A stretch of DNA of 64,000 bases, from the IMG/VR virus record IMGVR_UViG_642973577_000001, positions 32,001 through 96,000 of that record. The stretch is one strand, 5' to 3'. The notes beneath the pieces are model-generated. The model worked only from the letters and a program-made list of their open reading frames with translations, did no database searches and was not told the origin of the DNA. A program made the translations under genes and the position numbers. Positions 8,510 to 64,000 of the stretch are shown piece after piece (the first letter of the stretch is position 1; each line of letters starts with the position of its first letter). The DNA is from a virus (lineage: Duplodnaviria > Caudoviricetes).

Positions 8510-8863
8510 GTGCCCACGCCATACGAGAAGCCCGCGCCGGAGATGCACGAGAACACCGAGATGGAGTTCGGTATCCGGCTCCCGAACGGTGAAGAGGTCT
8601 GGCCTCCCGAGCTGTATATGGGCAAGATCCAGTACCAGGAATCCGCCGAGCGTGCGATCATCATGTCGGCCATCGCCGACGGTATCCGCAACATGGGCCT
8701 GCCGTTCGACGAGACGCTCGCGCAGTTCCAGTGGTTGACTCGCTACAAGCGCACGATCACCCTGACCTCGTACCTGGACCGCGTGGACGAGAACCCGATT
8801 GACCACCCGGCGATGACCGAGCAGTCGCGGTACTCCGAAACGGGTACTCAGGACCCGGAATAG
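8510..8863 (+). CDS. Hypothetical protein
   Basis: 117-aa ORF, AGGGG RBS, good codon bias. Confidence 0.7.
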   Translation: MPTPYEKPAPEMHENTEMEFGIRLPNGEEVWPPELYMGKIQYQESAERAIIMSAIADGIRNMGLPFDETLAQFQWLTRYKRTITLTSYLDRVDENPIDHPAMTEQSRYSETGTQDPE

Positions 8864-8891
8864 GTGTAACCACTACCGGAAGGGGAGCATC

Positions 8892-9059
8892 GTGCTCATC
8901 CTCGGAATCATCCTGATCGTCGTGGGTCTGCTCGTGCCATCGCTGCACGTGCTGTTCACCATCGGCGTCATCCTGGCCGTCATCGGCCTGGTCCTGCTGG
9001 TGCTCCCCGGCATCGGCGTGAACGGCGGTCGCCCCATCGGCGGACGTCGCTGGTACTAA
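8892..9059 (+). CDS. Small 2-TM membrane protein (DUF6131-like), 55 aa, not in the ORF track
   Basis: MLILGIILIVVGLLVPSLHVLFTIGVILAVIGLVLLVLPGIGVNGGRPIGGRRWY; GGGGAG RBS. Confidence 0.75.
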   Translation: MLILGIILIVVGLLVPSLHVLFTIGVILAVIGLVLLVLPGIGVNGGRPIGGRRWY

Positions 9060-58036: not shown

Positions 58037-59622
58037 ACCCGAAGCTCAACACCATCGGCATGGGGCTGATGGGCACCGGATGGGTGAGCGCCCAGGCTCT
58101 CATGGACGCACCGCCGCCCGTACTCGATCAGGTCATGGTCGCGGCCTTCGGCGTGTGGTTCACTAGTATGGCTCTGGAGCAGCGGAAGAAGTCTGACGCT
58201 GCCGACCAAACACCCACGGAGGTCCCAGTGGACTGGACTGACTCTGCCGAGCGCCTGCTGGAGCAGCTCGAAGAGGAGAACACCCCCAAGCCGACGTTCT
58301 TCTGCGCGACCGGCGACCACATCGTCGATGAGGTCATCTGGCTGGAGCAGATCGCGCTGGGCTGCAAGCCCTGCATGCTCAAGCTGCGCGACACCCTGAC
58401 CAAGGACCGCGACATCACCATGCGGCTGTGGAAGGGCAACCCCGACGGCACGCTGACCCAGATTCCGGCGGACCCCGAGAAGAAGCCGCTGCCGACCAAG
58501 ACCTCGGCCACCACGCCCGCCAAGACGGCGGCGCGACGTCGTGGGCCGAAGGAGTACATCCGCGAGCACCAGGACTGGACCTGCACCCAGTGCGGTCGCG
58601 GGTTCGATACGGCCCAGGACGGCTTCTACAACACCATGACCGGCTTCGTCTGCAAGCGGTGTGCAGGCACCGCGATCAAGGGCGGCAAGCCGGTGGGTGG
58701 CCTGACCGCACACAAGGCCGAGCAGCGCGTCAAGAGCCGAGTCGCCGACGGTGGTCCGTACACCGTCGACAAGGTGAACGTGGCCGCTGGCGAGGTCGTC
58801 AAGGCCTCCGGTGGCCGCACCTCCATCCGCATCCGGGGCGACGTCGGCCCTGGCGCGCTGGTGAAGGCCTCCGGCGGCAACTGCCGGATCATCATCGACG
58901 GCGACGTCTACCAGAACGCCACCGTCATGGCCTCTGGTGGCTCGGGCGAGATCATCGTCAAGGGCTACATCTACGACTACGCGATCGTGAAGGCCTCAGG
59001 AGGCTCGTGCCGCGTCAACCACCACGGCCATGCCGCCACGGCCCAGGTGAAGGCCTCGGGCGGCTCTGCGACGGTCTCAGACCTCTCCGGCGGTCGCGAC
59101 GAGGACGCCGGTCCCCGCGACTTCACCCGGTACCAGGCTCCTGGCCCGATCGCCACGACCAAGAGGCAGTGGGCCGACGCCGAGAGCTTCGCGAACAACC
59201 GGGGCGACGACCCGCTGACTCGCTACCTGCACGAGATCACCGCACCGTCGATCCAGGACCAGCTCAACGACGTCACCCAGAAGCGGATCAAGCGCAACCA
59301 GGAGATCGCCGAGCGCAACGGCCAGGGCGACTTCATCATCCCCACGTGCGTGGAGTGTGGCCTGCTGGACCCGGAGAATCCGGTGGCTGGCTGGACCAAG
59401 AACCCGCCGGGGTACAAGTGCGCCGTTTGCCTGTCTGGCAGCACCCCGGACCAGGCCAAGCGGAGCTACCGGAAGTGGCGCGTGCAGTCCCGCAAGGACC
59501 TGCCGAAGTCGCCACAGGACCGCGAGACCTACTACGTGATCGACGACAACGAGGTCCTGACCTGGTTCGATGGCACCTGGGTCCGGGTCCTGATCCCGAA
59601 CAGGAACACCGTCGACAAGTAG
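58033..59622 (+). CDS. Membrane-anchored protein with Zn ribbons and five ~21-aa V(K/M)ASGG repeats
   Basis: N-terminal hydrophobic segments, CxxC pairs, repeats at ~58795-59065. Confidence 0.75.
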   Translation: MNPKLNTIGMGLMGTGWVSAQALMDAPPPVLDQVMVAAFGVWFTSMALEQRKKSDAADQTPTEVPVDWTDSAERLLEQLEEENTPKPTFFCATGDHIVDEVIWLEQIALGCKPCMLKLRDTLTKDRDITMRLWKGNPDGTLTQIPADPEKKPLPTKTSATTPAKTAARRRGPKEYIREHQDWTCTQCGRGFDTAQDGFYNTMTGFVCKRCAGTAIKGGKPVGGLTAHKAEQRVKSRVADGGPYTVDKVNVAAGEVVKASGGRTSIRIRGDVGPGALVKASGGNCRIIIDGDVYQNATVMASGGSGEIIVKGYIYDYAIVKASGGSCRVNHHGHAATAQVKASGGSATVSDLSGGRDEDAGPRDFTRYQAPGPIATTKRQWADAESFANNRGDDPLTRYLHEITAPSIQDQLNDVTQKRIKRNQEIAERNGQGDFIIPTCVECGLLDPENPVAGWTKNPPGYKCAVCLSGSTPDQAKRSYRKWRVQSRKDLPKSPQDRETYYVIDDNEVLTWFDGTWVRVLIPNRNTVDK

Positions 59623-59625
59623 GGG

Positions 59626-59655
59626 TTGCACGTCTGACACGGGGTCTGCTACGGT
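59626..59655 (+). promoter_or_regulatory. SigA-like promoter for the tRNA cluster
   Basis: TTGCAC-18 nt-extended TGC-TACGGT. Confidence 0.6.
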
Positions 59656-59831
59656 AGATCCCGTGTTTACGATTGCCGATACCACCACGCGAGGGACGCT
59701 CATGCGAGCGGCCTATCGACCGTGGCATATCAAGCACTAGTCGTCGCAGCTTTCGAGCCGTGACGACGACCGGCTCGAAGATTCCACACCCGTAGTGGGT
59801 GTTTTCTCCTTGAGCCGACCGGCAGCACAAT

Positions 59832-59903
59832 CGGGATATGGTGTAAGGGTTAGCACGATTGGTTTGGGACCATTCTGACGGGGTTCGAGTCCCTGTTTCC
59901 CGA
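59832..59903 (+). tRNA. tRNA-Pro(TGG)
   Basis: CGGGATA/TTTCCCG-A; loop TT-TGG-GA. Confidence 0.85.
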
Positions 59904-59932
59904 CGTACGACAACTGAATAGCACGACCCTAT

Positions 59933-60000
59933 GCAGGTGTGAAGCGGCTTCCCGAAGGATTCCAACCCCTGAGGCGTGGGTTCAACTCCTACCACCTGTG
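59933..60000 (+). tRNA. tRNA-Trp(CCA), minimal D-loop
   Basis: GCAGGTG/CACCTGT-G; GAAG-CGG-CTTC; loop TT-CCA-AC. Confidence 0.75.
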
Positions 60001-60032
60001 CGTAAAGCGTCCAAACCACCTACCATGGTTAG

Positions 60033-60380
60033 ATGGCTTACAAGGACCCGTCAGACCCACGTCTGCTTGAGAAGCGTAGAGCGCATTACTACGCCAACAA
60101 GCAACCGTATCTAGATCGGGCAAAGGCTCAAAGGACAGCGATGTCCGTATGGGCCAGACAACTAAAGAGCGGACCCTGTACTGATTGTGGAGGCACTTTC
60201 CACCATTTTCAGATGGATTGGGATCACATTGGTGACGACAAAGAGTTCGACGTCGGCAAAGCGGTCAGGATAGGGTACGGCAAGAAGCGAATCTTGGCCG
60301 AGATCGCGAAGTGCGAGTTGGTTTGCGCCAACTGCCATCGCCTTCGGACCTGGAGGAGACTTCACCCTGAGGATGAGTAG
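60033..60380 (+). CDS. HNH endonuclease
   Basis: CTDCG..DWDH..KCELVCANCHRLRT; -10 TACCAT 6 nt before the ATG; AT-richer than flanks. Confidence 0.9.
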   Translation: MAYKDPSDPRLLEKRRAHYYANKQPYLDRAKAQRTAMSVWARQLKSGPCTDCGGTFHHFQMDWDHIGDDKEFDVGKAVRIGYGKKRILAEIAKCELVCANCHRLRTWRRLHPEDE

Positions 60381-60390
60381 TCCTCGCAAT

Positions 60391-60474
60391 GCCGTGTATG
60401 CCCAACTGGTGTTTGGGAGCAGGCTGTAACCCTGTGGCCTTCGGGACGGCGGAGTTCGATTCTCTGACGCGGCA
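60391..60474 (+). tRNA. tRNA-Tyr(GTA)
   Basis: GCAGG CT-GTA-AC CCTGT; long variable arm. Confidence 0.9.
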
Positions 60475-60613
60475 CGTTTAATCCCTTGCGGGATTGAATC
60501 GAGCAGAGGTAGCTTCTACCTCAGCTCGTATGAAACTTGAGAACTCCATAGTGTAGTACTAGAGATCTGGCCAGGCACCATCCTGGCCACAAACCCGGCT
60601 CGTCCGGGTGCGT

Positions 60614-60687
60614 AGCGGGGTAGAGCAGCTCGGTAGCTCGCCAGGCTCATAACCTGGAGGCCGTGGGTTCAAATCCCACTCCCGCCA
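60614..60687 (+). tRNA. tRNA-Met(CAT), initiator-like 1-72 mismatch
   Basis: AGCGGGG/TCCCGCC-A; CCAGG CT-CAT-AA CCTGG. Confidence 0.88.
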
Positions 60688-60689
60688 CT

Positions 60690-60825
60690 AGGTCTCGGGT
60701 CGAGAGAGTCTGTCGGTTATCGCTGGTTCGATTCCTGCCGGGTCCACCCATGGACCCGTCGCTCCATGGCGGAGCACCCAGCTAGCGGCTGGGATTCCGG
60801 CACTCAACACCCATATCCGAGACTT
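60690..60825 (+). ncRNA. Y-RNA-like element 1 (order T arm, closed acceptor, D arm, anticodon-like arm)
   Basis: GGGTCGA..GTCGGTTATC; GCTGG-TTCGATT-CCTGC; CGGGTCCA-CCCA-TGGACCCG; GCTC..GAGC; CCCAGC/GCTGGG; CCGGC; closing stem AGGTCTCGG/CCGAGACTT. Confidence 0.75.
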
Positions 60826-60827
60826 CT

Positions 60828-60900
60828 GGGGATGCATGTTCCTTGGGGGCGACTGATCCTTGCAAGATCGGTGAGGTGGGTTCGATTCCCATCATCTCCA
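60828..60900 (+). tRNA. tRNA-Ala(TGC)
   Basis: G3.U70 pair; TGATC CT-TGC-AA GATCG. Confidence 0.87.
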
Positions 60901-60904
60901 CTTT

Positions 60905-60976
60905 GTGCTGATGGCCGAGATGGTTAGGCACTGGGTTGCAACCCCAGGCACGCAGGTTCGAGTCCTGTTCGGCACT
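60905..60976 (+). tRNA. tRNA-Cys(GCA)
   Basis: CTGGG TT-GCA-AC CCCAG; U73. Confidence 0.92.
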
Positions 60977-61009
60977 CAAAGCCCCGCTGGAGGCTTCATA
61001 TCCGGCTCT

Positions 61010-61080
61010 GGTCCTATGGGGTAGTGGTAGCCCATCTCCCTCTCACGGAGACGGCCCGAGTTCAATTCTCGGTAGGACTG
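61010..61080 (+). tRNA. tRNA-Glu(CTC)
   Basis: TCTCC CT-CTC-AC GGAGA. Confidence 0.92.
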
Positions 61081-61082
61081 CT

Positions 61083-61153
61083 GTGGCCATAGTTCAATGG
61101 CAGAACGCCGGGTTGTGATCCCGGTCGCGAGGGTTCGATTCCCTCTGGTCACC
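61083..61153 (+). tRNA. tRNA-His(GTG)
   Basis: CCGGG TT-GTG-AT CCCGG; C73; T at position -1. Confidence 0.92.
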
Positions 61154-61155
61154 CC

Positions 61156-61226
61156 GCGCTCGTGGCATATTGGTTGTGCTCCAGCCTTCCAAGCTGGCTA
61201 AGCAGGTTCGATTCCTGTCGGGCGCT
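61156..61226 (+). tRNA. tRNA-Gly(TCC)
   Basis: CCAGC CT-TCC-AA GCTGG; U73. Confidence 0.92.
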
Positions 61227-61383
61227 CGCAGTATTCGCAGTATCACCCGCAAGGGGGCGCACCAAGGCTTACCACCTACGCAGGCAGTCGACGGCCTCGA
61301 AACGGTACATGGACCTCCTGGATGTCCTGGGGAGGTGCAACGGGCAAGCCGGAGACTTCACCCGCCGGTCTACAGGGCATCAT

Positions 61384-61456
61384 GGGGCTGTAGCTCAATC
61401 GGTAGAGCGTCTCGCTGGCAGTGAGAAGGCAGTCGGTTCGATCCCGACCAGTTCCA
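61384..61456 (+). tRNA. tRNA-Ala(GGC)
   Basis: GGGGCTG/CAGTTCC-A; TCTCG CT-GGC-AG TGAGA. Confidence 0.93.
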
Positions 61457-61489
61457 CGTACCGTCTTGAGGCGCGTTAGTCCTCAGCTT

Positions 61490-61561
61490 GCCTTCATAGC
61501 TCAGTTGGTAGAGCGTCGGACTGAAAACCCGGAGGCCGTGGTTCGATTCCACGTGTTGGCA
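61490..61561 (+). tRNA. tRNA-Phe(GAA)
   Basis: Loop CT-GAA-AA; two U.U mismatches in the acceptor. Confidence 0.87.
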
Positions 61562-61565
61562 CAAT

Positions 61566-61633
61566 GCTCCTCTAGTCTGGGACAGAAGTCGGGTCACATC
61601 CGATCGAGCGGGGTTCGATTCCCTGGGGGAGTA
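61566..61633 (+). tRNA. tRNA-Val(CAC), minimal D-loop
   Basis: TCTG-GGA-CAGA; GTCGG GT-CAC-AT CCGAT. Confidence 0.78.
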
Positions 61634-61646
61634 CGCAAGATCTAAT

Positions 61647-61720
61647 GGCCCTAGAGCACGGTCTGGTAGTGCTACGGACTCTTAATCCGCAGGTCGTAGG
61701 TTCAAATCCTACTGGGGCCA
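61647..61720 (+). tRNA. tRNA-Lys(CTT)
   Basis: CGGA CT-CTT-AA TCCG. Confidence 0.88.
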
Positions 61721-61731
61721 CTTCACCTTAT

Positions 61732-61804
61732 GCGCTCGTAGCTCAGCTGGTAGAGCTGCTGACTCTTAATCAGCATGTCGGGGGTTCGAGTCCCTCCGGG
61801 CGTA
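61732..61804 (+). tRNA. tRNA-Lys(CTT), second copy
   Basis: GCTGA CT-CTT-AA TCAGC. Confidence 0.93.
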
Positions 61805-61818
61805 CGTTAGAATTAGCT

Positions 61819-62124
61819 ATGAGTGCTAATTCTGAGGCCGTGTCTCGTACGCGGCGCAAGCACAAGGCTCTGCTGGTCGCAGAGCACGGTGGCAAGTGTC
61901 TGGACTGCGGGGTCGCTTACCCGCCGTACGTGATGCAGTTCGATCATCGGGACACGACGATGAAGGCCTTCGGCCTGAGCGGCAAGTCCCAAACCTGGTC
62001 ACTCGCCCGGAAACGAGCGGAGGCCGAGAAGTGCGACCTGGTGTGTGCGAATTGCCACGCCATCAGGACGCACAAACAGCGGTGTGGAGGATGCGAACTC
62101 TGCACCAGTGTGCTTGAGGTGTAA
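61819..62124 (+). CDS. HNH endonuclease
   Basis: GGKCLDCG..QFDHRD..KCDLVCANCHAIRT; -10 TAGAAT 5 nt before the ATG; stop lies inside tRNA-Gly. Confidence 0.88.
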   Translation: MSANSEAVSRTRRKHKALLVAEHGGKCLDCGVAYPPYVMQFDHRDTTMKAFGLSGKSQTWSLARKRAEAEKCDLVCANCHAIRTHKQRCGGCELCTSVLEV

Positions 62125-62182
62125 ATGGTCGCACGACACCTTGCCAAGGTGTAGGAAGCCGGTTCGATCCCGGTCAGGCACT
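62110..62182 (+). tRNA. tRNA-Gly(GCC)
   Basis: GTGCTTG/CAGGCAC-T; ACACC TT-GCC-AA GGTGT. Confidence 0.88.
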
Positions 62183-62261
62183 CGTCGCCGTACCGGTTCA
62201 GCCGGTCGCATAGTGAGAAGTGGCAACCTCATCGCTGGCCCAGCGAAACAGGGCACTCGAT

Positions 62262-62336
62262 GGCCTATCGGTCCAGTCTGGAGTGGACACCGCCCTGTCA
62301 CGGCGGAGAGCACGGGTTCAAATCCCGTATAGGTCG
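62262..62336 (+). tRNA. tRNA-Asp(GTC)
   Basis: CCGCC CT-GTC-AC GGCGG; G73. Confidence 0.92.
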
Positions 62337-62417
62337 CGTCGGAGTGTAGCGAGGTTCGATTCCTCGGGGTCCGGGAGAAATCCTTGTCCCGTTGTGTCTG
62401 GCGATGCAGCTCCGTAT

Positions 62418-62490
62418 GCCTGTGTAGCTCATCTGGCAGAGCGCCCTGCTCATAACGGGGAGGTAAGTGGTTCGAGACCACTCATAGGTA
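62418..62490 (+). tRNA. tRNA with CAT anticodon (elongator Met or Ile2)
   Basis: CCCTG CT-CAT-AA CGGGG. Confidence 0.88.
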
Positions 62491-62496
62491 CAAGGT

Positions 62497-62587
62497 GACA
62501 GCGGGACTAGACCCCCGGTGCCCTGCTGCGGCGAAACTTCTGCGCACCGTCTATGCGTGGACCGGTGAAAATCCGGCGCTGTAGCCA
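62497..62587 (+). ncRNA. Aberrant tRNA-like RNA with a 22-nt loop in the anticodon position and encoded GCCA
   Basis: ACAGCG/CGCTGT acceptor; CGGTGC/GCACCG; TCTA-TGCG-TGGA; CCGG-TGAAAAT-CCGG; 3' GCCA. Confidence 0.55.
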
Positions 62588-62588
62588 A

Positions 62589-62662
62589 GCCTGTTAGCGG
62601 ACTGGTCGTCCGATCCAAGCTGATAACTTGGCGCAAGGAGTGTTCGATTCACTCAGCAGGTA
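62589..62662 (+). tRNA. tRNA-Ile(GAT)
   Basis: CCAAG CT-GAT-AA CTTGG. Confidence 0.87.
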
Positions 62663-62663
62663 C

Positions 62664-62803
62664 GTTCGATGGGCCGATGGAATGTCGGTTATCTCCCGCA
62701 GCCAACCTTTGCGGGGTAGCTCAGTTGGTAGAGCGCCACCCTTTAAGGTGGAGGTCGTCGGTTCGAGTCCGATCCCTTTCCGGCTCCGCTCATGCCCATC
62801 AAC
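62664..62803 (+). ncRNA. Y-RNA-like element 2 (closed acceptor, D arm, anticodon arm, T arm)
   Basis: GGGCCGA..GTCGGTTATC; TCCCGCA-GCCAACCTT-TGCGGGG; canonical D arm; CCACC-CTTTAA-GGTGG; T arm; CCGGC; closing GATGGGC/GCCCATC. Confidence 0.75.
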
Positions 62804-62808
62804 ACAAT

Positions 62809-62881
62809 CTCCCGGTGGTTCAACGGATAGAGCGCCAGACTACGAATCTGGAGAGTGGGGGTTCGATTCCCTCTCGGGAGA
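62809..62881 (+). tRNA. tRNA-Arg(ACG)
   Basis: CCAGA CT-ACG-AA TCTGG. Confidence 0.92.
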
Positions 62882-62883
62882 CA

Positions 62884-62993
62884 AAGCACGGGCCGATCGG
62901 TCGTCGGTTATCGTTTAACGGAAAAACAATTCACTCATAATGAATCACTCCGGGTTCGAGTCCCGGTTCCGGCTCCATTAAATGCCCGTGTTT
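62884..62993 (+). ncRNA. Y-RNA-like element 3 (D arm, CAT anticodon arm, T arm; scaffold replaces the acceptor)
   Basis: GGGCCGA..GTCGGTTATC; GTTT/AAAC; ATTCA CT-CAT-AA TGAAT; CCGGG-TTCGAGT-CCCGG; CCGGC; closing AAGCACGGGC/GCCCGTGTTT. Confidence 0.75.
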
Positions 62994-62997
62994 CAAT

Positions 62998-63068
62998 GCT
63001 GGATTAGCATAGTGGTAGTGCCCTTCCTTGGTATGGAAGTAGCCGGGGTTCGATTCCCCGATTCAGCT
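62998..63068 (+). tRNA. tRNA-Thr(GGT)
   Basis: CTTCC TT-GGT-AT GGAAG. Confidence 0.9.
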
Positions 63069-63074
63069 CGCAAT

Positions 63075-63146
63075 GCTCTTGTAGCTCAGTGGTAGAGCAC
63101 CAGCCCGACATGCTGGTTGTCCGAGGTTCGATTCCTCGTTGGAGCA
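63075..63146 (+). tRNA. tRNA-Val(GAC)
   Basis: CCAGC CC-GAC-AT GCTGG (C at position 33). Confidence 0.88.
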
Positions 63147-63149
63147 CGT

Positions 63150-63284
63150 TGGATGGGTCGACCGCAGGTCGGTTATCTCCTGTCAAGAGGGTGGTCGCGG
63201 GTTCGATTCCCGTCGTCGTTCCTGGAACGGCGTAGCTCAGTGGTAGAGCACCAAAAACACCGGCAGCATCCCCATATCCATCCA
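63150..63284 (+). ncRNA. Y-RNA-like element 4 (GTC anticodon arm, T arm, closed acceptor, D arm)
   Basis: GGGTCGA..GTCGGTTATC; CTC CT-GTC-AA GAG; GCGGG-TTCGATT-CCCGT; CGTCGTT-CCTGG-AACGGCG; canonical D arm; CCGGC; closing TGGATG/CATCCA. Confidence 0.75.
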
Positions 63285-63324
63285 TCACCTAGCTCCAGGT
63301 CGCCCTCCGGGACTGGCCTGGCTT

Positions 63325-63396
63325 TGCCTCCATCGTTCAGTGGTAGGACGCCTGCCTTGTAAGCAGGCTGCGGGCGTTCGATTCGTCCTGGAGGCT
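63325..63396 (+). tRNA. tRNA-Thr(TGT)
   Basis: CCTGC CT-TGT-AA GCAGG. Confidence 0.92.
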
Positions 63397-63402
63397 CTCT
63401 AT

Positions 63403-63476
63403 GGTTCGGTGGTCTGCTGGCTGTGCCACTCAGGTTTTCACCCTGGGATACGCGGGTTCGATTCCCGTCCGAACTA
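63403..63476 (+). tRNA. tRNA-Glu(TTC)
   Basis: TCAGG TT-TTC-AC CCTGG. Confidence 0.85.
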
Positions 63477-63560
63477 CGGTGGGGGAGGCAGCAGTCGAGA
63501 GCTGTCCCGTTCGGGGCTACCAAGCACCCGGCGGTGGGCGCAGGCACTCCCCCTCCCAGT

Positions 63561-63633
63561 GCTGGTGAAGCGTGAACGGTTTACGCACGGCCCTCGTAAC
63601 GCCGAGAAGTCGGTTCGACTCCGACCTCCAGCT
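63561..63633 (+). tRNA. tRNA-Thr(CGT)
   Basis: CGGC-C CT-CGT-AA C-GCCG; GTCGG-TTCGACT-CCGAC. Confidence 0.85.
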
Positions 63634-63697
63634 CCCTGGCTTGGGATGGCAGGCCGATCTGTACCGTGTCGGCGGGCAATACCGACACCATCCCTCT

Positions 63698-63767
63698 ACC
63701 CTCGCCAGCGGACCTGGCGTGAGGCCTCCGACGCCACACTGCGGGAGTTCGACTCTCTCCGGGGGTG
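63698..63767 (+). tRNA. tRNA-Arg(CCG), atypical D arm
   Basis: ACCCTCG/CGGGGGT-G; CCAG-CGGAC-CTGG; GGC CT-CCG-AC GCC. Confidence 0.75.
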
Positions 63768-63796
63768 CTTTCCGGCACAGGGGGTACACTCTCCTT

Positions 63797-64000
63797 GTGA
63801 CGACTCAAGCACGACGCGATTACATGCGCGAGTACCAGCGCAAGTGGAAGGCCCAGCGCCGTGCTGACTACTTCGCCGACAAGGCCTGCGTACGGTGCGG
63901 GTCCACCGAGAACCTCCGGCTCGATCACATCGACCCGGCCAAGAAGGTGGACCACAAGATCTGGACGTGGAGCCAGGAACGCCGCGAGGCCGAGCTGGAA
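63797..64000 (+). CDS. HNH endonuclease, 3'-truncated by the window edge
   Basis: MTTQARRDYMREYQ..ACVRCGSTENLRLDHIDP..EAELE; -10 TACACT 6 nt before the GTG. Confidence 0.85.
   Translation, partial: MTTQARRDYMREYQRKWKAQRRADYFADKACVRCGSTENLRLDHIDPAKKVDHKIWTWSQERREAELE

What the first reader, a model, noticed from the sequence alone, without database searches (positions are those of the whole stretch)
60690..63284. Four Y-RNA-like scaffolds, each displaying a tRNA module opened at a different junction
Seen: four spacers in the tRNA array (60690-60825, 62664-62803, 62884-62993, 63150-63284) share a 5' GGGYCGA-N6-8-GTCGGTTATC, a 3' CCGGC-N-CCCRT that can pair with it, and a terminal closing stem. 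Each encloses tRNA arms in a different circular order. Y1 is T/acceptor/D/anticodon (opened at the variable loop). Y2 is acceptor/D/anticodon/T (opened at the T-acceptor junction, with GCCA kept inside the closing loop and a 6-nt CTTTAA loop). Y3 is D/anticodon CAT/T (the scaffold replaces the acceptor). Y4 is anticodon GTC/T/acceptor/D (opened at the D-anticodon junction). None has a free NCCA end. Known: bacterial YrlA Y RNAs have a Ro60/Rsr-binding stem with a GNCGA motif and a T/acceptor/D tRNA mimic in which the stem takes the anticodon position, and Bxz1 encodes a Ro ortholog. Inference: this is a modular family of Ro-tethered tRNA mimics presenting different faces, including intact anticodon loops, possibly as decoys for tRNA-targeting defence enzymes. 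I do not know of this permutation series being described.
Basis: partly seen in the sequence, partly recalled or inferred. Interest (0 to 1): 0.92.

Follow-up and report, generated by a model that had tools for sequence, protein, structure and literature searches.

The report
Phage Y RNAs hidden among tRNA genes
Four spacers in this mycobacteriophage's tRNA gene array encode partner RNAs (Y RNAs) of the phage's own Ro60 protein; two have the known tRNA-mimic layout and two carry tRNA parts in an order not reported for this RNA family.

Summary
The four spacers (60692-60823, 62666-62802, 62885-62992, 63150-63284) share one handle: a 9-bp closing stem ending in GGGY, then CGA, a GUCGG/CCGGC helix and UUAUC. 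The same handle sits on two RNAs directly upstream of the phage's Ro60 (TROVE+vWA) gene, 36 kb away. A covariance model trained only on handle RNAs from other loci finds exactly these four in 5 kb (40.5 to 20.5 bits; next best 10.5). The handle co-occurs with Ro60 genes in 5 of 5 phage contigs and 83 of 103 bacterial loci. These are YrlA-family Y RNAs, known in mycobacteriophages since 2014 but described next to Ro60.

Y4 has the canonical YrlA layout. Y1 is canonical plus a hairpin seen only in this phage. Y2 (whole cloverleaf, sealed acceptor, 6-nt anticodon loop) and Y3 (D/anticodon/T, handle as acceptor, NCCA kept) have native tRNA order, which I saw only in Myrna-type phages.

The decoy idea is weakly supported, because anticodon loops differ in sequence and length among three close relatives. 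This scan had already reached the same reading of the Y2 type on other Myrna-like DNA. Verdict: new variant of a known kind.

The parts
60692..60823 (+). Y1. Handle: closing stem 60692-60700 with 60815-60823, CGA at 60701, GUCGG 60712-60716 with CCGGC 60797-60801, UUAUC 60717-60721. Cargo: T arm 60722-60738, sealed acceptor hairpin 60739-60758, D arm 60761-60775, extra hairpin 60777-60793.
   Evidence: Scaffold model R1 gives 40.5 bits over the full model. Fold, coordinates. Rfam YrlA matches the core 60715-60778 at 27 bits. Orthologues follow tRNA-fMet in Phabba, ScoobyDoobyDoo and Rizal and occur in 202 Bxz1-type records.
62666..62802 (+). Y2. Handle: closing stem about 62667-62674 with 62794-62800, GUCGG 62684-62688 with CCGGC 62780-62784. 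Cargo: acceptor 3' strand + GCCA (62701-62704) + 5-nt linker + acceptor 5' strand (62694-62716), D arm 62719-62734, anticodon arm with 6-nt loop 62736-62751, T arm 62757-62773.
   Evidence: R1 gives 20.5 bits over the full model. Fold. ARAGORN calls tRNA-??? with a 2-nt anticodon. The three-phage consensus has 41 pairs, 4 of them compensatory. Coordinates.
62885..62992 (+). Y3. Handle: closing stem 62885-62893 with 62984-62992, GUCGG 62903-62907 with CCGGC 62969-62973, followed by TCCA 62974-62977. Cargo: D arm 62913-62927, anticodon arm with CAT 62929-62945, T arm 62950-62966. The handle helix stands where the acceptor stem would be.
   Evidence: R1 gives 27.9 bits. ARAGORN calls tRNA-Met at 62903-62977. 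The three-phage consensus has 28 pairs, 6 of them compensatory. NCCA after the helix occurs in 2 of 105 handle candidates, both Y3 orthologues.
63150..63284 (+). Y4. Handle: closing stem 63150-63158 with 63276-63284, GUCGG 63168-63172 with CCGGC 63260-63264. Cargo in canonical YrlA order: V/anticodon-like hairpin 63176-63190, T arm 63197-63213, sealed acceptor 63214-63232, D arm 63235-63249.
   Evidence: R1 gives 37.8 bits. Rfam YrlA gives 40.3 bits at 63190-63252, higher than the Bxz1-type YrlA beside Ro60 (36.1 bits).
60614..63397 (+). Flanking tRNA genes that bound the four RNAs: tRNA-Met ends 60688 and tRNA-Ala starts 60828; tRNA-Ile ends 62663 and tRNA-Arg spans 62809-62882; tRNA-Thr starts 62998; tRNA-Val ends 63147 and tRNA-Thr starts 63326.
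   Evidence: ARAGORN. Gaps to the R1 matches are 2-6 nt, except 41 nt after Y4. No promoter-like site was found in 59300-64000, and there is no terminator-like site on the + strand after 60316.

Best explanation
The four spacers are genes for Y RNAs, the small RNAs that bind the ring protein Ro60. They belong to the YrlA family and serve the phage's own Ro60.

Shown:
- They carry the same handle as the two RNAs immediately upstream of the phage Ro60 gene.
- That handle travels with Ro60 genes in other phages and in bacteria.
- Helices are kept by compensatory changes among relatives.

Inferred:
- Biogenesis: they are transcribed with the tRNA operon and cut out by the enzymes that cut out the neighbouring tRNAs. 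RNase P at the next tRNA's 5' end makes their 3' end, and 3' processing of the preceding tRNA makes their 5' end.
- Binding: the single-stranded GNCGA motif and closing stem dock on Ro60.
- Role of the cargo: the tRNA-shaped cargo gives a nuclease-resistant fold and a surface for tRNA-recognising host or phage proteins. This would tether or gate Ro60 during infection, as Y RNAs tether Ro60 to PNPase in Deinococcus and in Thermus phage phiLo.
- Origin of the differences: cargo differences arose by recombination between Y RNA genes and adjacent tRNA genes. That gave a whole cloverleaf entered at the T/acceptor junction (Y2) and a tRNA whose acceptor stem merged with the handle helix (Y3).
- Possible opening: sealed acceptor loops that keep NCCA (Y2) and the NCCA after Y3's helix may be opened by RNase P, as reported for M. 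smegmatis YrlA.
For: - Exact GTCGGTTATC occurs 6 times in the 164,602-bp genome: the four elements plus 131034 and 131148, just upstream of the Ro60 ORF.
- Ro60 has TROVE (162.8 bits) and vWA_Ro60 (141.9 bits).
- Model R1 was built from 17 short handle RNAs that exclude the four. It recovers exactly the four in 5001 bases on both strands with filters off: 40.5, 37.8, 27.9 and 20.5 bits, next best 10.5.
- The handle pattern gives 20 matches in five Ro60 phage records, against 1 for the reversed control pattern.
- TROVE is present in 5 of 5 viral contigs chosen for having 3 or more handles. Only 354 of 50,697 phage records have a Ro60 homologue.
- 83 of 103 bacterial loci with handle plus T arm hold a Ro60 homologue within 8 kb.
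- Chen et al. 2014 (PMC4201824; sections 5, 6, 10 and passages read) define YrlA by GNCGAA, by YUAY opening the V loop and by T/AS/D order. They report YrlA in 22 phages, including mycobacteriophages.
- Compensatory changes: Y2 in 4 of 41 pairs, Y3 in 6 of 28.
- The elements abut tRNAs by 2-6 nt.
- ORFs overlapping them have no Pfam match.
Against: - There are no expression or end-mapping data, and no Ro60 binding data.
- The four lie 36 kb from Ro60, whereas the published criterion was within 4 kb.
- None reaches the Rfam YrlA gathering score of 69 bits, and Y2 and Y3 are not hit at all. However, the accepted Bxz1-type YrlA also scores only 36.1 bits, and this phage's own Ro60-adjacent YrlA gets no hit at E<=0.1.
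- Only GNCGA, not the full GNCGAA, is present in the four.
- Y4's fold is not better than shuffles (z = -0.94).
- The 17 training sequences were picked by a finder that demanded pairing, so the 94.5% paired figure is partly circular.
- What the cargo does is entirely inferred.
Confidence: 0.8

Rival explanations
1. Decoys. The Ro60-tethered tRNA look-alikes soak up or misdirect host tRNA-cleaving defence enzymes (VapC, MazF, PrrC-type) by offering anticodon loops.
For: - Y3 and Y4 have 7-nt loops with U at the second position and a purine at the sixth (CTCATAA, CTGTCAA).
- Cluster C1 phage tRNAs have been argued to evade mycobacterial tRNases (PMC10264068; abstract and one passage read).
- A Ro60-like protein of phage Bas63 counters the ppl defence system, and its authors suggest that some neighbouring 'tRNA genes' may be Y RNAs (PMC11482910; passage read).
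- Fast loop turnover could reflect an arms race.
Against: - Loop sequence and even loop length are not kept among three close relatives: Y2 has 6, 7 and 6 nt with unrelated sequences, and Y3 has CAT, CAT and TTA.
- Y1's extra hairpin and Y3's D arm exist only in this phage.
- Y4's hairpin is the ordinary YrlA V arm, also found in bacteria.
- No tRNase or defence link was tested.
Confidence: 0.1
2. Permuted or caged precursor tRNAs. The handle is a processing scaffold that is removed, and Y2 and Y3 mature into working tRNAs.
For: - Y2 has a perfect 7-bp acceptor with GCCA, and Y3 has NCCA after its helix.
- M. smegmatis YrlA is cut by RNase P and receives CCA (PMC4201824, section 10).
- The phage encodes a CCA-adding-type enzyme.
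- Public records label the Y2 core tRNA-Ser (Phabba) and tRNA-Sup (ScoobyDoobyDoo).
Against: - The 6-nt anticodon loops and the changing anticodons are incompatible with a fixed decoding role.
- Y3's acceptor has only 5 pairs plus two U-U mismatches.
- The phage has no RtcB or Rnl-type ligase to rejoin a permuted tRNA.
- The same handle sits on short RNAs with no tRNA parts.
Confidence: 0.05
3. Inert chimeras. These are by-products of recombination between Y RNA genes and tRNA genes in a crowded array, with no function of their own.
For: Modules come and go between close relatives: Y3's D arm, Phabba's extra hairpin, Y1's extra hairpin. The Y4 counterpart sits beside Ro60 in ScoobyDoobyDoo.
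Against: Handle and helices are kept with compensatory changes in phages whose Ro60 is 92% to about 52% identical. The Y1 orthologue is present in 202 Bxz1-type records at 95% identity or more. The spacing between tRNAs is precise.
Confidence: 0.05

Closest known systems
YrlA Y RNAs of bacteria and mycobacteriophages (Rfam RF02553; Chen et al. 2014, PMC4201824; structure in bioRxiv 10.1101/312249)
   Same: All share a 5' GNCGA motif, UUAU (the YUAY) after the handle helix and a closing stem of the 5' and 3' ends. Y1 and Y4 have the T arm, sealed acceptor and D arm order. A Ro60 gene is in the same genome and on the same strand. The exact handle occurs in Streptosporangium, Nonomuraea and Mycolicibacterium loci beside Ro60.
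   Different: These lie 36 kb from Ro60, inside the tRNA operon. Y2 and Y3 have D/anticodon/T order. Y2 keeps a whole cloverleaf, entered at the T/acceptor junction. All score below the Rfam threshold.
Deinococcus radiodurans Yrn1 (as described in PMC4201824, sections 6 and 10)
   Same: By that description, Yrn1 has T and D arms in the opposite orientation to YrlA, an 'anticodon arm' with a 6-nt loop between them, and the Ro60-binding stem at the acceptor position. This matches Y3's layout and Y2's 6-nt loop.
   Different: The handle here is the YrlA type, not the Yrn1/metazoan two-strand helix. I made no sequence comparison with Yrn1. The paper regards the two as independent lineages.
Thermus phage phiLo Ro60 with Yrl1/Yrl2 (PMC12135203; abstract and passages read)
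   Same: A phage-encoded Ro60 with phage-encoded Y-like RNAs carrying a CGAA motif. The RNAs and Ro60 bind host PNPase in vitro.
   Different: Those two RNAs lie directly upstream of the gene. The passages I read do not describe them as tRNA mimics or as lying in a tRNA array.
Circularly permuted tRNA genes of Cyanidioschyzon merolae (as cited in 10.1101/312249, discussion)
   Same: In Y2 the acceptor 3' strand and CCA are encoded upstream of the 5' strand, and the acceptor is initially sealed.
   Different: Those mature into decoding tRNAs through a splicing endonuclease and a ligase. Here the anticodon loop has 6 nt, and the phage has no RtcB or Rnl ligase.
Bas63 gp130, a Ro60-like anti-defence protein (PMC11482910; passage read)
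   Same: A phage Ro60-like gene next to a tRNA array. Its authors suggest that some annotated tRNAs may be Y RNAs.
   Different: It is a different phage group, and no RNAs were defined there. The counter-defence phenotype is for the protein.

Membership tests
YrlA-type Y RNA (RF02553; Chen et al. 2014) | GNCGAA(N0-1)G motif near the 5' end | tested here: inconclusive
   GNCGA is present in 4 of 4 (GTCGAG, GCCGAT, GCCGAT, GTCGAC). The full CGAA is in 0 of 4 but is present in the Ro60-adjacent long RNA (GCCGAACG).
YrlA-type Y RNA (RF02553; Chen et al. 2014) | Conserved YUAY after the handle helix, opening the variable region | tested here: met
   UUAU within GTCGGTTATC is present in 4 of 4 and in both Ro60-adjacent RNAs.
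YrlA-type Y RNA (RF02553; Chen et al. 2014) | T arm, then sealed acceptor-like stem-loop, then D arm | tested here: not met
   Met by Y1 and Y4. Not met by Y2 (acceptor, D, anticodon, T) or Y3 (D, anticodon, T).
YrlA-type Y RNA (RF02553; Chen et al. 2014) | Encoded within about 4 kb of Ro60 on the same strand | tested here: not met
   They are on the same strand but 36 kb away (Ro60 ORF starts at genome 131288; Y4 ends at 95284). Two same-handle RNAs do lie within 300 nt upstream of Ro60.
YrlA-type Y RNA (RF02553; Chen et al. 2014) | Reaches the Rfam gathering score (69 bits) | tested here: not met
   Y4 scores 40.3 and Y1 27.0, both on the partial model 24-84. Y2 and Y3 get no hit. As a control, the Bxz1-type YrlA beside Ro60 scores 36.1 and this phage's own Ro60-adjacent YrlA gets no hit, so the model under-reaches for phages.
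YrlA-type Y RNA (RF02553; Chen et al. 2014) | Handle co-occurs with a Ro60/TROVE gene | tested here: met
   The phage's own genome, 5 of 5 viral contigs and 83 of 103 bacterial loci.
YrlA-type Y RNA (RF02553; Chen et al. 2014) | Bound by Ro60/Rsr in cells | not testable with these tools
   Needs immunoprecipitation or gel shift.
Decoding tRNA | 7-nt anticodon loop and an acceptor stem made by free 5' and 3' ends with NCCA | tested here: not met
   Y2 has a 6-nt loop, and its acceptor pairs 7 of 7 with the upstream strand but only 3 Watson-Crick plus 2 G-U pairs with the downstream one. Y3 has 5 pairs plus 2 U-U, buried in the handle.
Permuted tRNA gene (Cyanidioschyzon type) | Processing by endonuclease and ligase to a mature decoding tRNA | tested here: inconclusive
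   The phage has no RtcB and no RNA_ligase family hit. Host enzymes were not examined. The anticodon is not conserved.
Yrn1-type Y RNA (Deinococcus) | Ro60-binding stem at the acceptor position with D-like, anticodon-like and T arms in native order | tested here: inconclusive
   Y3 has this layout. The comparison rests on the paper's text only, with no sequence or model comparison.

The most novel reading that the evidence does not exclude
Myrna-type phages run a Ro60 particle with a kit of six interchangeable RNA adaptors. These include a complete tRNA cloverleaf whose sealed CCA end can be opened by RNase P. The kit would let the phage couple Ro60 (and a recruited host nuclease such as PNPase) to the tRNA world, to police, protect or sacrifice tRNA-shaped molecules when host tRNases fire. 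The cargo would be re-tooled quickly by recombination with neighbouring tRNA genes.
Probability: 0.15. Interest if true: 0.8.

Novelty: new variant of a known kind. Interest (0 to 1): 0.55.

Why it matters
What the tRNA-like half of bacterial Y RNAs is for remains open, as the 2014 and 2018 papers say. Here one genome offers six natural variants on one handle: no tRNA parts, the canonical permuted layout, a whole cloverleaf, and an acceptor-less tRNA. The host, M. smegmatis, is genetically tractable, has its own Rsr/YrlA system, and is known to cut YrlA with RNase P. That makes cargo function directly testable.

It also matters for annotation. The Y1 orthologue lies unannotated in the eight listed rows of 202 Bxz1-type records. 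The Y2 core is filed as tRNA-Ser or as a suppressor tRNA in public records, which distorts tRNA-repertoire analyses.

Tried and rejected
- Rfam at gathering thresholds found only tRNAs in the window.
- No RNA holder was listed for the stretch, and I did not lay reads.
- A protein-pattern scan of bacterial genomes with the phage Ro60 found no relative. I used a DNA handle pattern instead.
I filtered it by pairing rules.
- A looser handle regex gave about as many hits as shuffles on several strands, so I dropped it.
- My D-arm and T-loop regexes are crude. The 50 'none' and 15 'T only' among 105 candidates, and the 3 'D only' bacterial elements that by eye are T-before-D, show this.
- ARAGORN on the 105 phage candidates gave 6 calls. 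Two were Y2 and Y3, one was a possible Y3-like element in an unrelated AT-rich contig (L117) whose 3' pairing I could not settle, and three were spurious. Its single call among 227 bacterial elements looked spurious too.
- The MAFFT alignment of the Y1 orthologues was too gapped to use, so I compared their acceptor hairpins by eye.
- One of the six rows (L125) had wrong coordinates and is not a Y RNA. Its counts are diluted by that row.
- With default filters, R1 misses Y1 and Y2.
- The reviews PMC10870794 and PMC6047535 are not held. Supplementary Table S2 of Chen et al. 2014, which lists the phage YrlAs, is closed and may already list some array copies.
- My 'not in print' statement rests on searches.

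Full report
**Where the window lies.** The window is bases 32001-96000 of a complete 164,602-bp virus record. Its closest named relatives are the Myrnavirus mycobacteriophages Phabba and ScoobyDoobyDoo. The finding lies in a run of about 25 tRNA genes on the + strand.

**The observation.**
- Exact GTCGGTTATC occurs four times in the window, once in each flagged spacer. With one mismatch allowed there are 9 matches against 2.26 expected, and 0 of 100 shuffles reach 9.
  - Y1: T, sealed acceptor, D, extra hairpin.
  - Y2: sealed acceptor, D, anticodon arm with a 6-nt loop, T.
  - Y3: (weak D), anticodon arm with CAT, T.
  - Y4: hairpin, T, sealed acceptor, D.
- Given each 5' motif, shuffles of the downstream 230 nt reach the observed handle closure in 79, 331, 7 and 95 of 2000 trials.
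- ORFs overlapping the elements have no Pfam match at E<=0.01.

**What the handle is.**
- The whole genome has six exact copies of the 10-mer. The other two are at 131034 and 131148.
- These lie in the 300 nt before a 559-aa ORF with TROVE (162.8 bits) and Ro60-vWA (141.9 bits) domains.
- One is an 80-nt RNA with almost no cargo. The other has T arm, sealed acceptor (loop ACCACAA) and D arm, which is the published YrlA layout.
- Chen et al. 2014 (PMC4201824; sections 5, 6, 10 read) define YrlA by a 5' GNCGAA motif, a conserved YUAY that opens the variable region, and T/AS/D stem-loops. They report YrlA beside Ro60 in 254 bacteria and 22 phages, among them mycobacteriophage ET08.
- The handle here carries GNCGA and UUAU.

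**Independent test of the handle.**
- I aligned 17 short handle RNAs from other places: the Ro60-adjacent short RNAs of this phage, ScoobyDoobyDoo and Rizal, one from Rhodococcus phage Trina, and 12 from uncultured viral contigs.
- I built a covariance model with only the closing stem and inner helix as structure.
- With filters off on 59000-64000, both strands, it returns exactly the four elements as full-length matches: 40.5, 37.8, 27.9 and 20.5 bits. The next match scores 10.5 bits.
- In the training alignment 8 of 9 closing-stem pairs change on both sides. The Y of GGGY covaries with a purine in a 3' AT(A/G)YCC motif (U-A 9, C-G 8 of 17).
- The high percentage paired is partly by construction, because my finder demanded pairing.

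**Link to Ro60 beyond this genome.**
- A strict handle pattern gives 20 matches in five Ro60-encoding actinophage records, against 1 for the reversed control.
- It finds copies both beside Ro60 and inside tRNA arrays in Rizal (a Bxz1-type phage), ScoobyDoobyDoo, Phabba, Sixama and Trina. Trina has at least seven handles interleaved with tRNAs upstream of Ro60.
- Five of five uncultured viral contigs chosen for holding three or more handles encode a TROVE protein. Only 354 of 50,697 phage records have a Ro60 homologue.
- Handle plus T arm matches 103 stretches of bacterial genomes, mostly Actinomycetota (Nonomuraea, Streptosporangium, Herbidospora, Mycolicibacterium). 83 of these hold a Ro60 homologue within the 8-kb locus.

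**Rfam.**
- YrlA (gathering score 69) gives sub-threshold partial hits to the T/acceptor/D cores of Y4 (40.3 bits) and Y1 (27.0 bits), and nothing for Y2 or Y3.
- As a control, the Bxz1-type YrlA beside Ro60 scores 36.1 bits. This phage's own Ro60-adjacent YrlA is not hit at E<=0.1.
- Failing the threshold therefore says little for phage members.

**How unusual the four layouts are.**
- Y4 is canonical. Its hairpin with a 7-nt loop, followed by GGUGGUC and the T arm, appears the same way in bacterial YrlAs (loops CTGTTAA, CTGATAA) and in Rizal's YrlA. It is the 'V' stem-loop of the 2014 paper.
- In ScoobyDoobyDoo the Y4 counterpart sits beside Ro60.
- Y1 is canonical without a V arm. Its orthologues follow tRNA-fMet in Phabba, ScoobyDoobyDoo and Rizal. 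Their acceptor hairpins differ completely in sequence but all pair, and none has the extra 3' hairpin.
- The Rizal copy recurs in 202 records at 95% identity or more. The eight listed rows show no annotated feature under it.
- Native order (D before T) is rare. It is seen in 2 of 105 phage handle candidates, both from this genome, and in 0 of 227 bacterial elements.
- A scan of 2.9 million viral contigs for a D arm within 31 nt of the handle gave five stretches. Only one is of the Y2 type, on a 164,254-bp contig, which is Phabba's length.
- Full-length Y2 is found in 3 phage records and Y3 in 2.

**Conservation of Y2 and Y3.**
- Y2 in three phages has 41 consensus pairs, 4 with changes on both sides. 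These include the outer pair of the handle helix and one anticodon-stem pair.
- Its anticodon loop reads CTTTAA, CTTGATC and ACTATG.
- GCCA follows the acceptor strand in two phages but not in ScoobyDoobyDoo.
- Y3 has 28 pairs, 6 of them compensatory. Its loop is CTCATAA in two phages and CTTTACA in the third.
- Y3's D arm exists only here, and Phabba has an added hairpin.
- All three Y3 copies keep NCCA right after CCGGC. That feature occurs in 2 of 105 candidates, both Y3; the third case was seen by eye.
- Helices are therefore under selection, and anticodon identity is not.

**Processing clues.**
- The elements start 2-3 nt after one tRNA and end 4-6 nt before the next, except for 41 nt after Y4.
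- No promoter-like site lies in 59300-64000, and terminator-like sites are no more frequent than chance.
- NCCA at positions 73-76 of the sealed acceptor loop occurs in 7 of 34 T-then-acceptor hairpins, all in actinophages.
- The phage has a CCA-adding-type enzyme but no RtcB or Rnl-type ligase.

**Literature.**
- I found no description of Y RNAs inside mycobacteriophage tRNA arrays, or of native-order cargo on a YrlA handle.
- The difference in orientation between YrlA and Yrn1 is published.
- A 2024 preprint suggests that some Bas63 'tRNA genes' may be Y RNAs and shows that its Ro60-like protein counters a defence system.
- Two reviews and the 2014 supplements could not be read.
- Earlier notes of this scan on other Myrna-like DNA reached the same reading of the Y2 type. 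Many notes describe handle-plus-cargo arrays in other phages.

**Verdict.**
- These are real, conserved Y RNAs of the phage Ro60, dispersed in the tRNA operon.
- Two are canonical YrlA, and two are new cargo layouts on the same handle.
- Function beyond Ro60 partnership is inferred, and the decoy reading is not favoured.

Noticed in passing
outside the window: genome 131015-131094 and 131129-131264 (L001:1105-1184 and 1219-1354): Two same-handle RNAs lie directly upstream of the Ro60 ORF. One is a short RNA with almost no cargo. The other is a canonical T/acceptor/D YrlA with ACCA in its acceptor loop.
   Followed up: yes
L121:166-1100 (Rhodococcus phage Trina): At least seven handle-type RNAs are interleaved with tRNA genes in the 1 kb before Ro60. 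One stretch is annotated as a 209-nt pseudo tRNA-OTHER.
   Followed up: partly
L003:3714-3786 and L119:4492-4560: Public records annotate the Y2 core as tRNA-Ser (Phabba) and tRNA-Sup(cta) (ScoobyDoobyDoo), although its acceptor partner lies upstream and the loop has 7 or 6 nt.
   Followed up: yes
L122:1491-1611 (Rizal) and 202 Bxz1-type records: The tRNA-array Y RNA after tRNA-fMet is conserved at 95% identity or more. It has no annotated feature in the eight rows listed.
   Followed up: partly
L117 (reverse strand 8838-8935) of an AT-rich viral contig with TROVE: A handle followed by a D arm, an anticodon arm (GAA) and a T arm. It may be a Y3-like native-order cargo in an unrelated phage, but its 3' pairing is ambiguous.
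   Followed up: partly
L251:2295-2524 and L253:472-701: An ordinary-looking tRNA (anticodon CCT, ACCA end) is preceded by GGGCCGC-TCGGTTATCC and followed by CCATGTC, which are handle-like motifs around a free-ended tRNA.
   Followed up: no
window 59933-60000: A tRNA is seen only by Rfam, at 29.1 bits (threshold 29), and not by ARAGORN. Phabba annotates tRNA-Trp at the corresponding place.
   Followed up: no
window 60033-60380, 61819-62124, 63797-64000: Small ORFs with Cys and His pairs lie inside the tRNA array. Phabba annotates an HNH endonuclease in its array. None matched Pfam at E<=0.01.
   Followed up: partly
window 62338-62417: This spacer holds a lone T-arm-like hairpin (stem closing a TTCGATT loop) with no other tRNA arms and no handle.
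   Followed up: no
window 60722-60738 and its orthologues: The T stem of Y1 keeps the same U-U mismatch in this phage, ScoobyDoobyDoo and Rizal.
   Followed up: no
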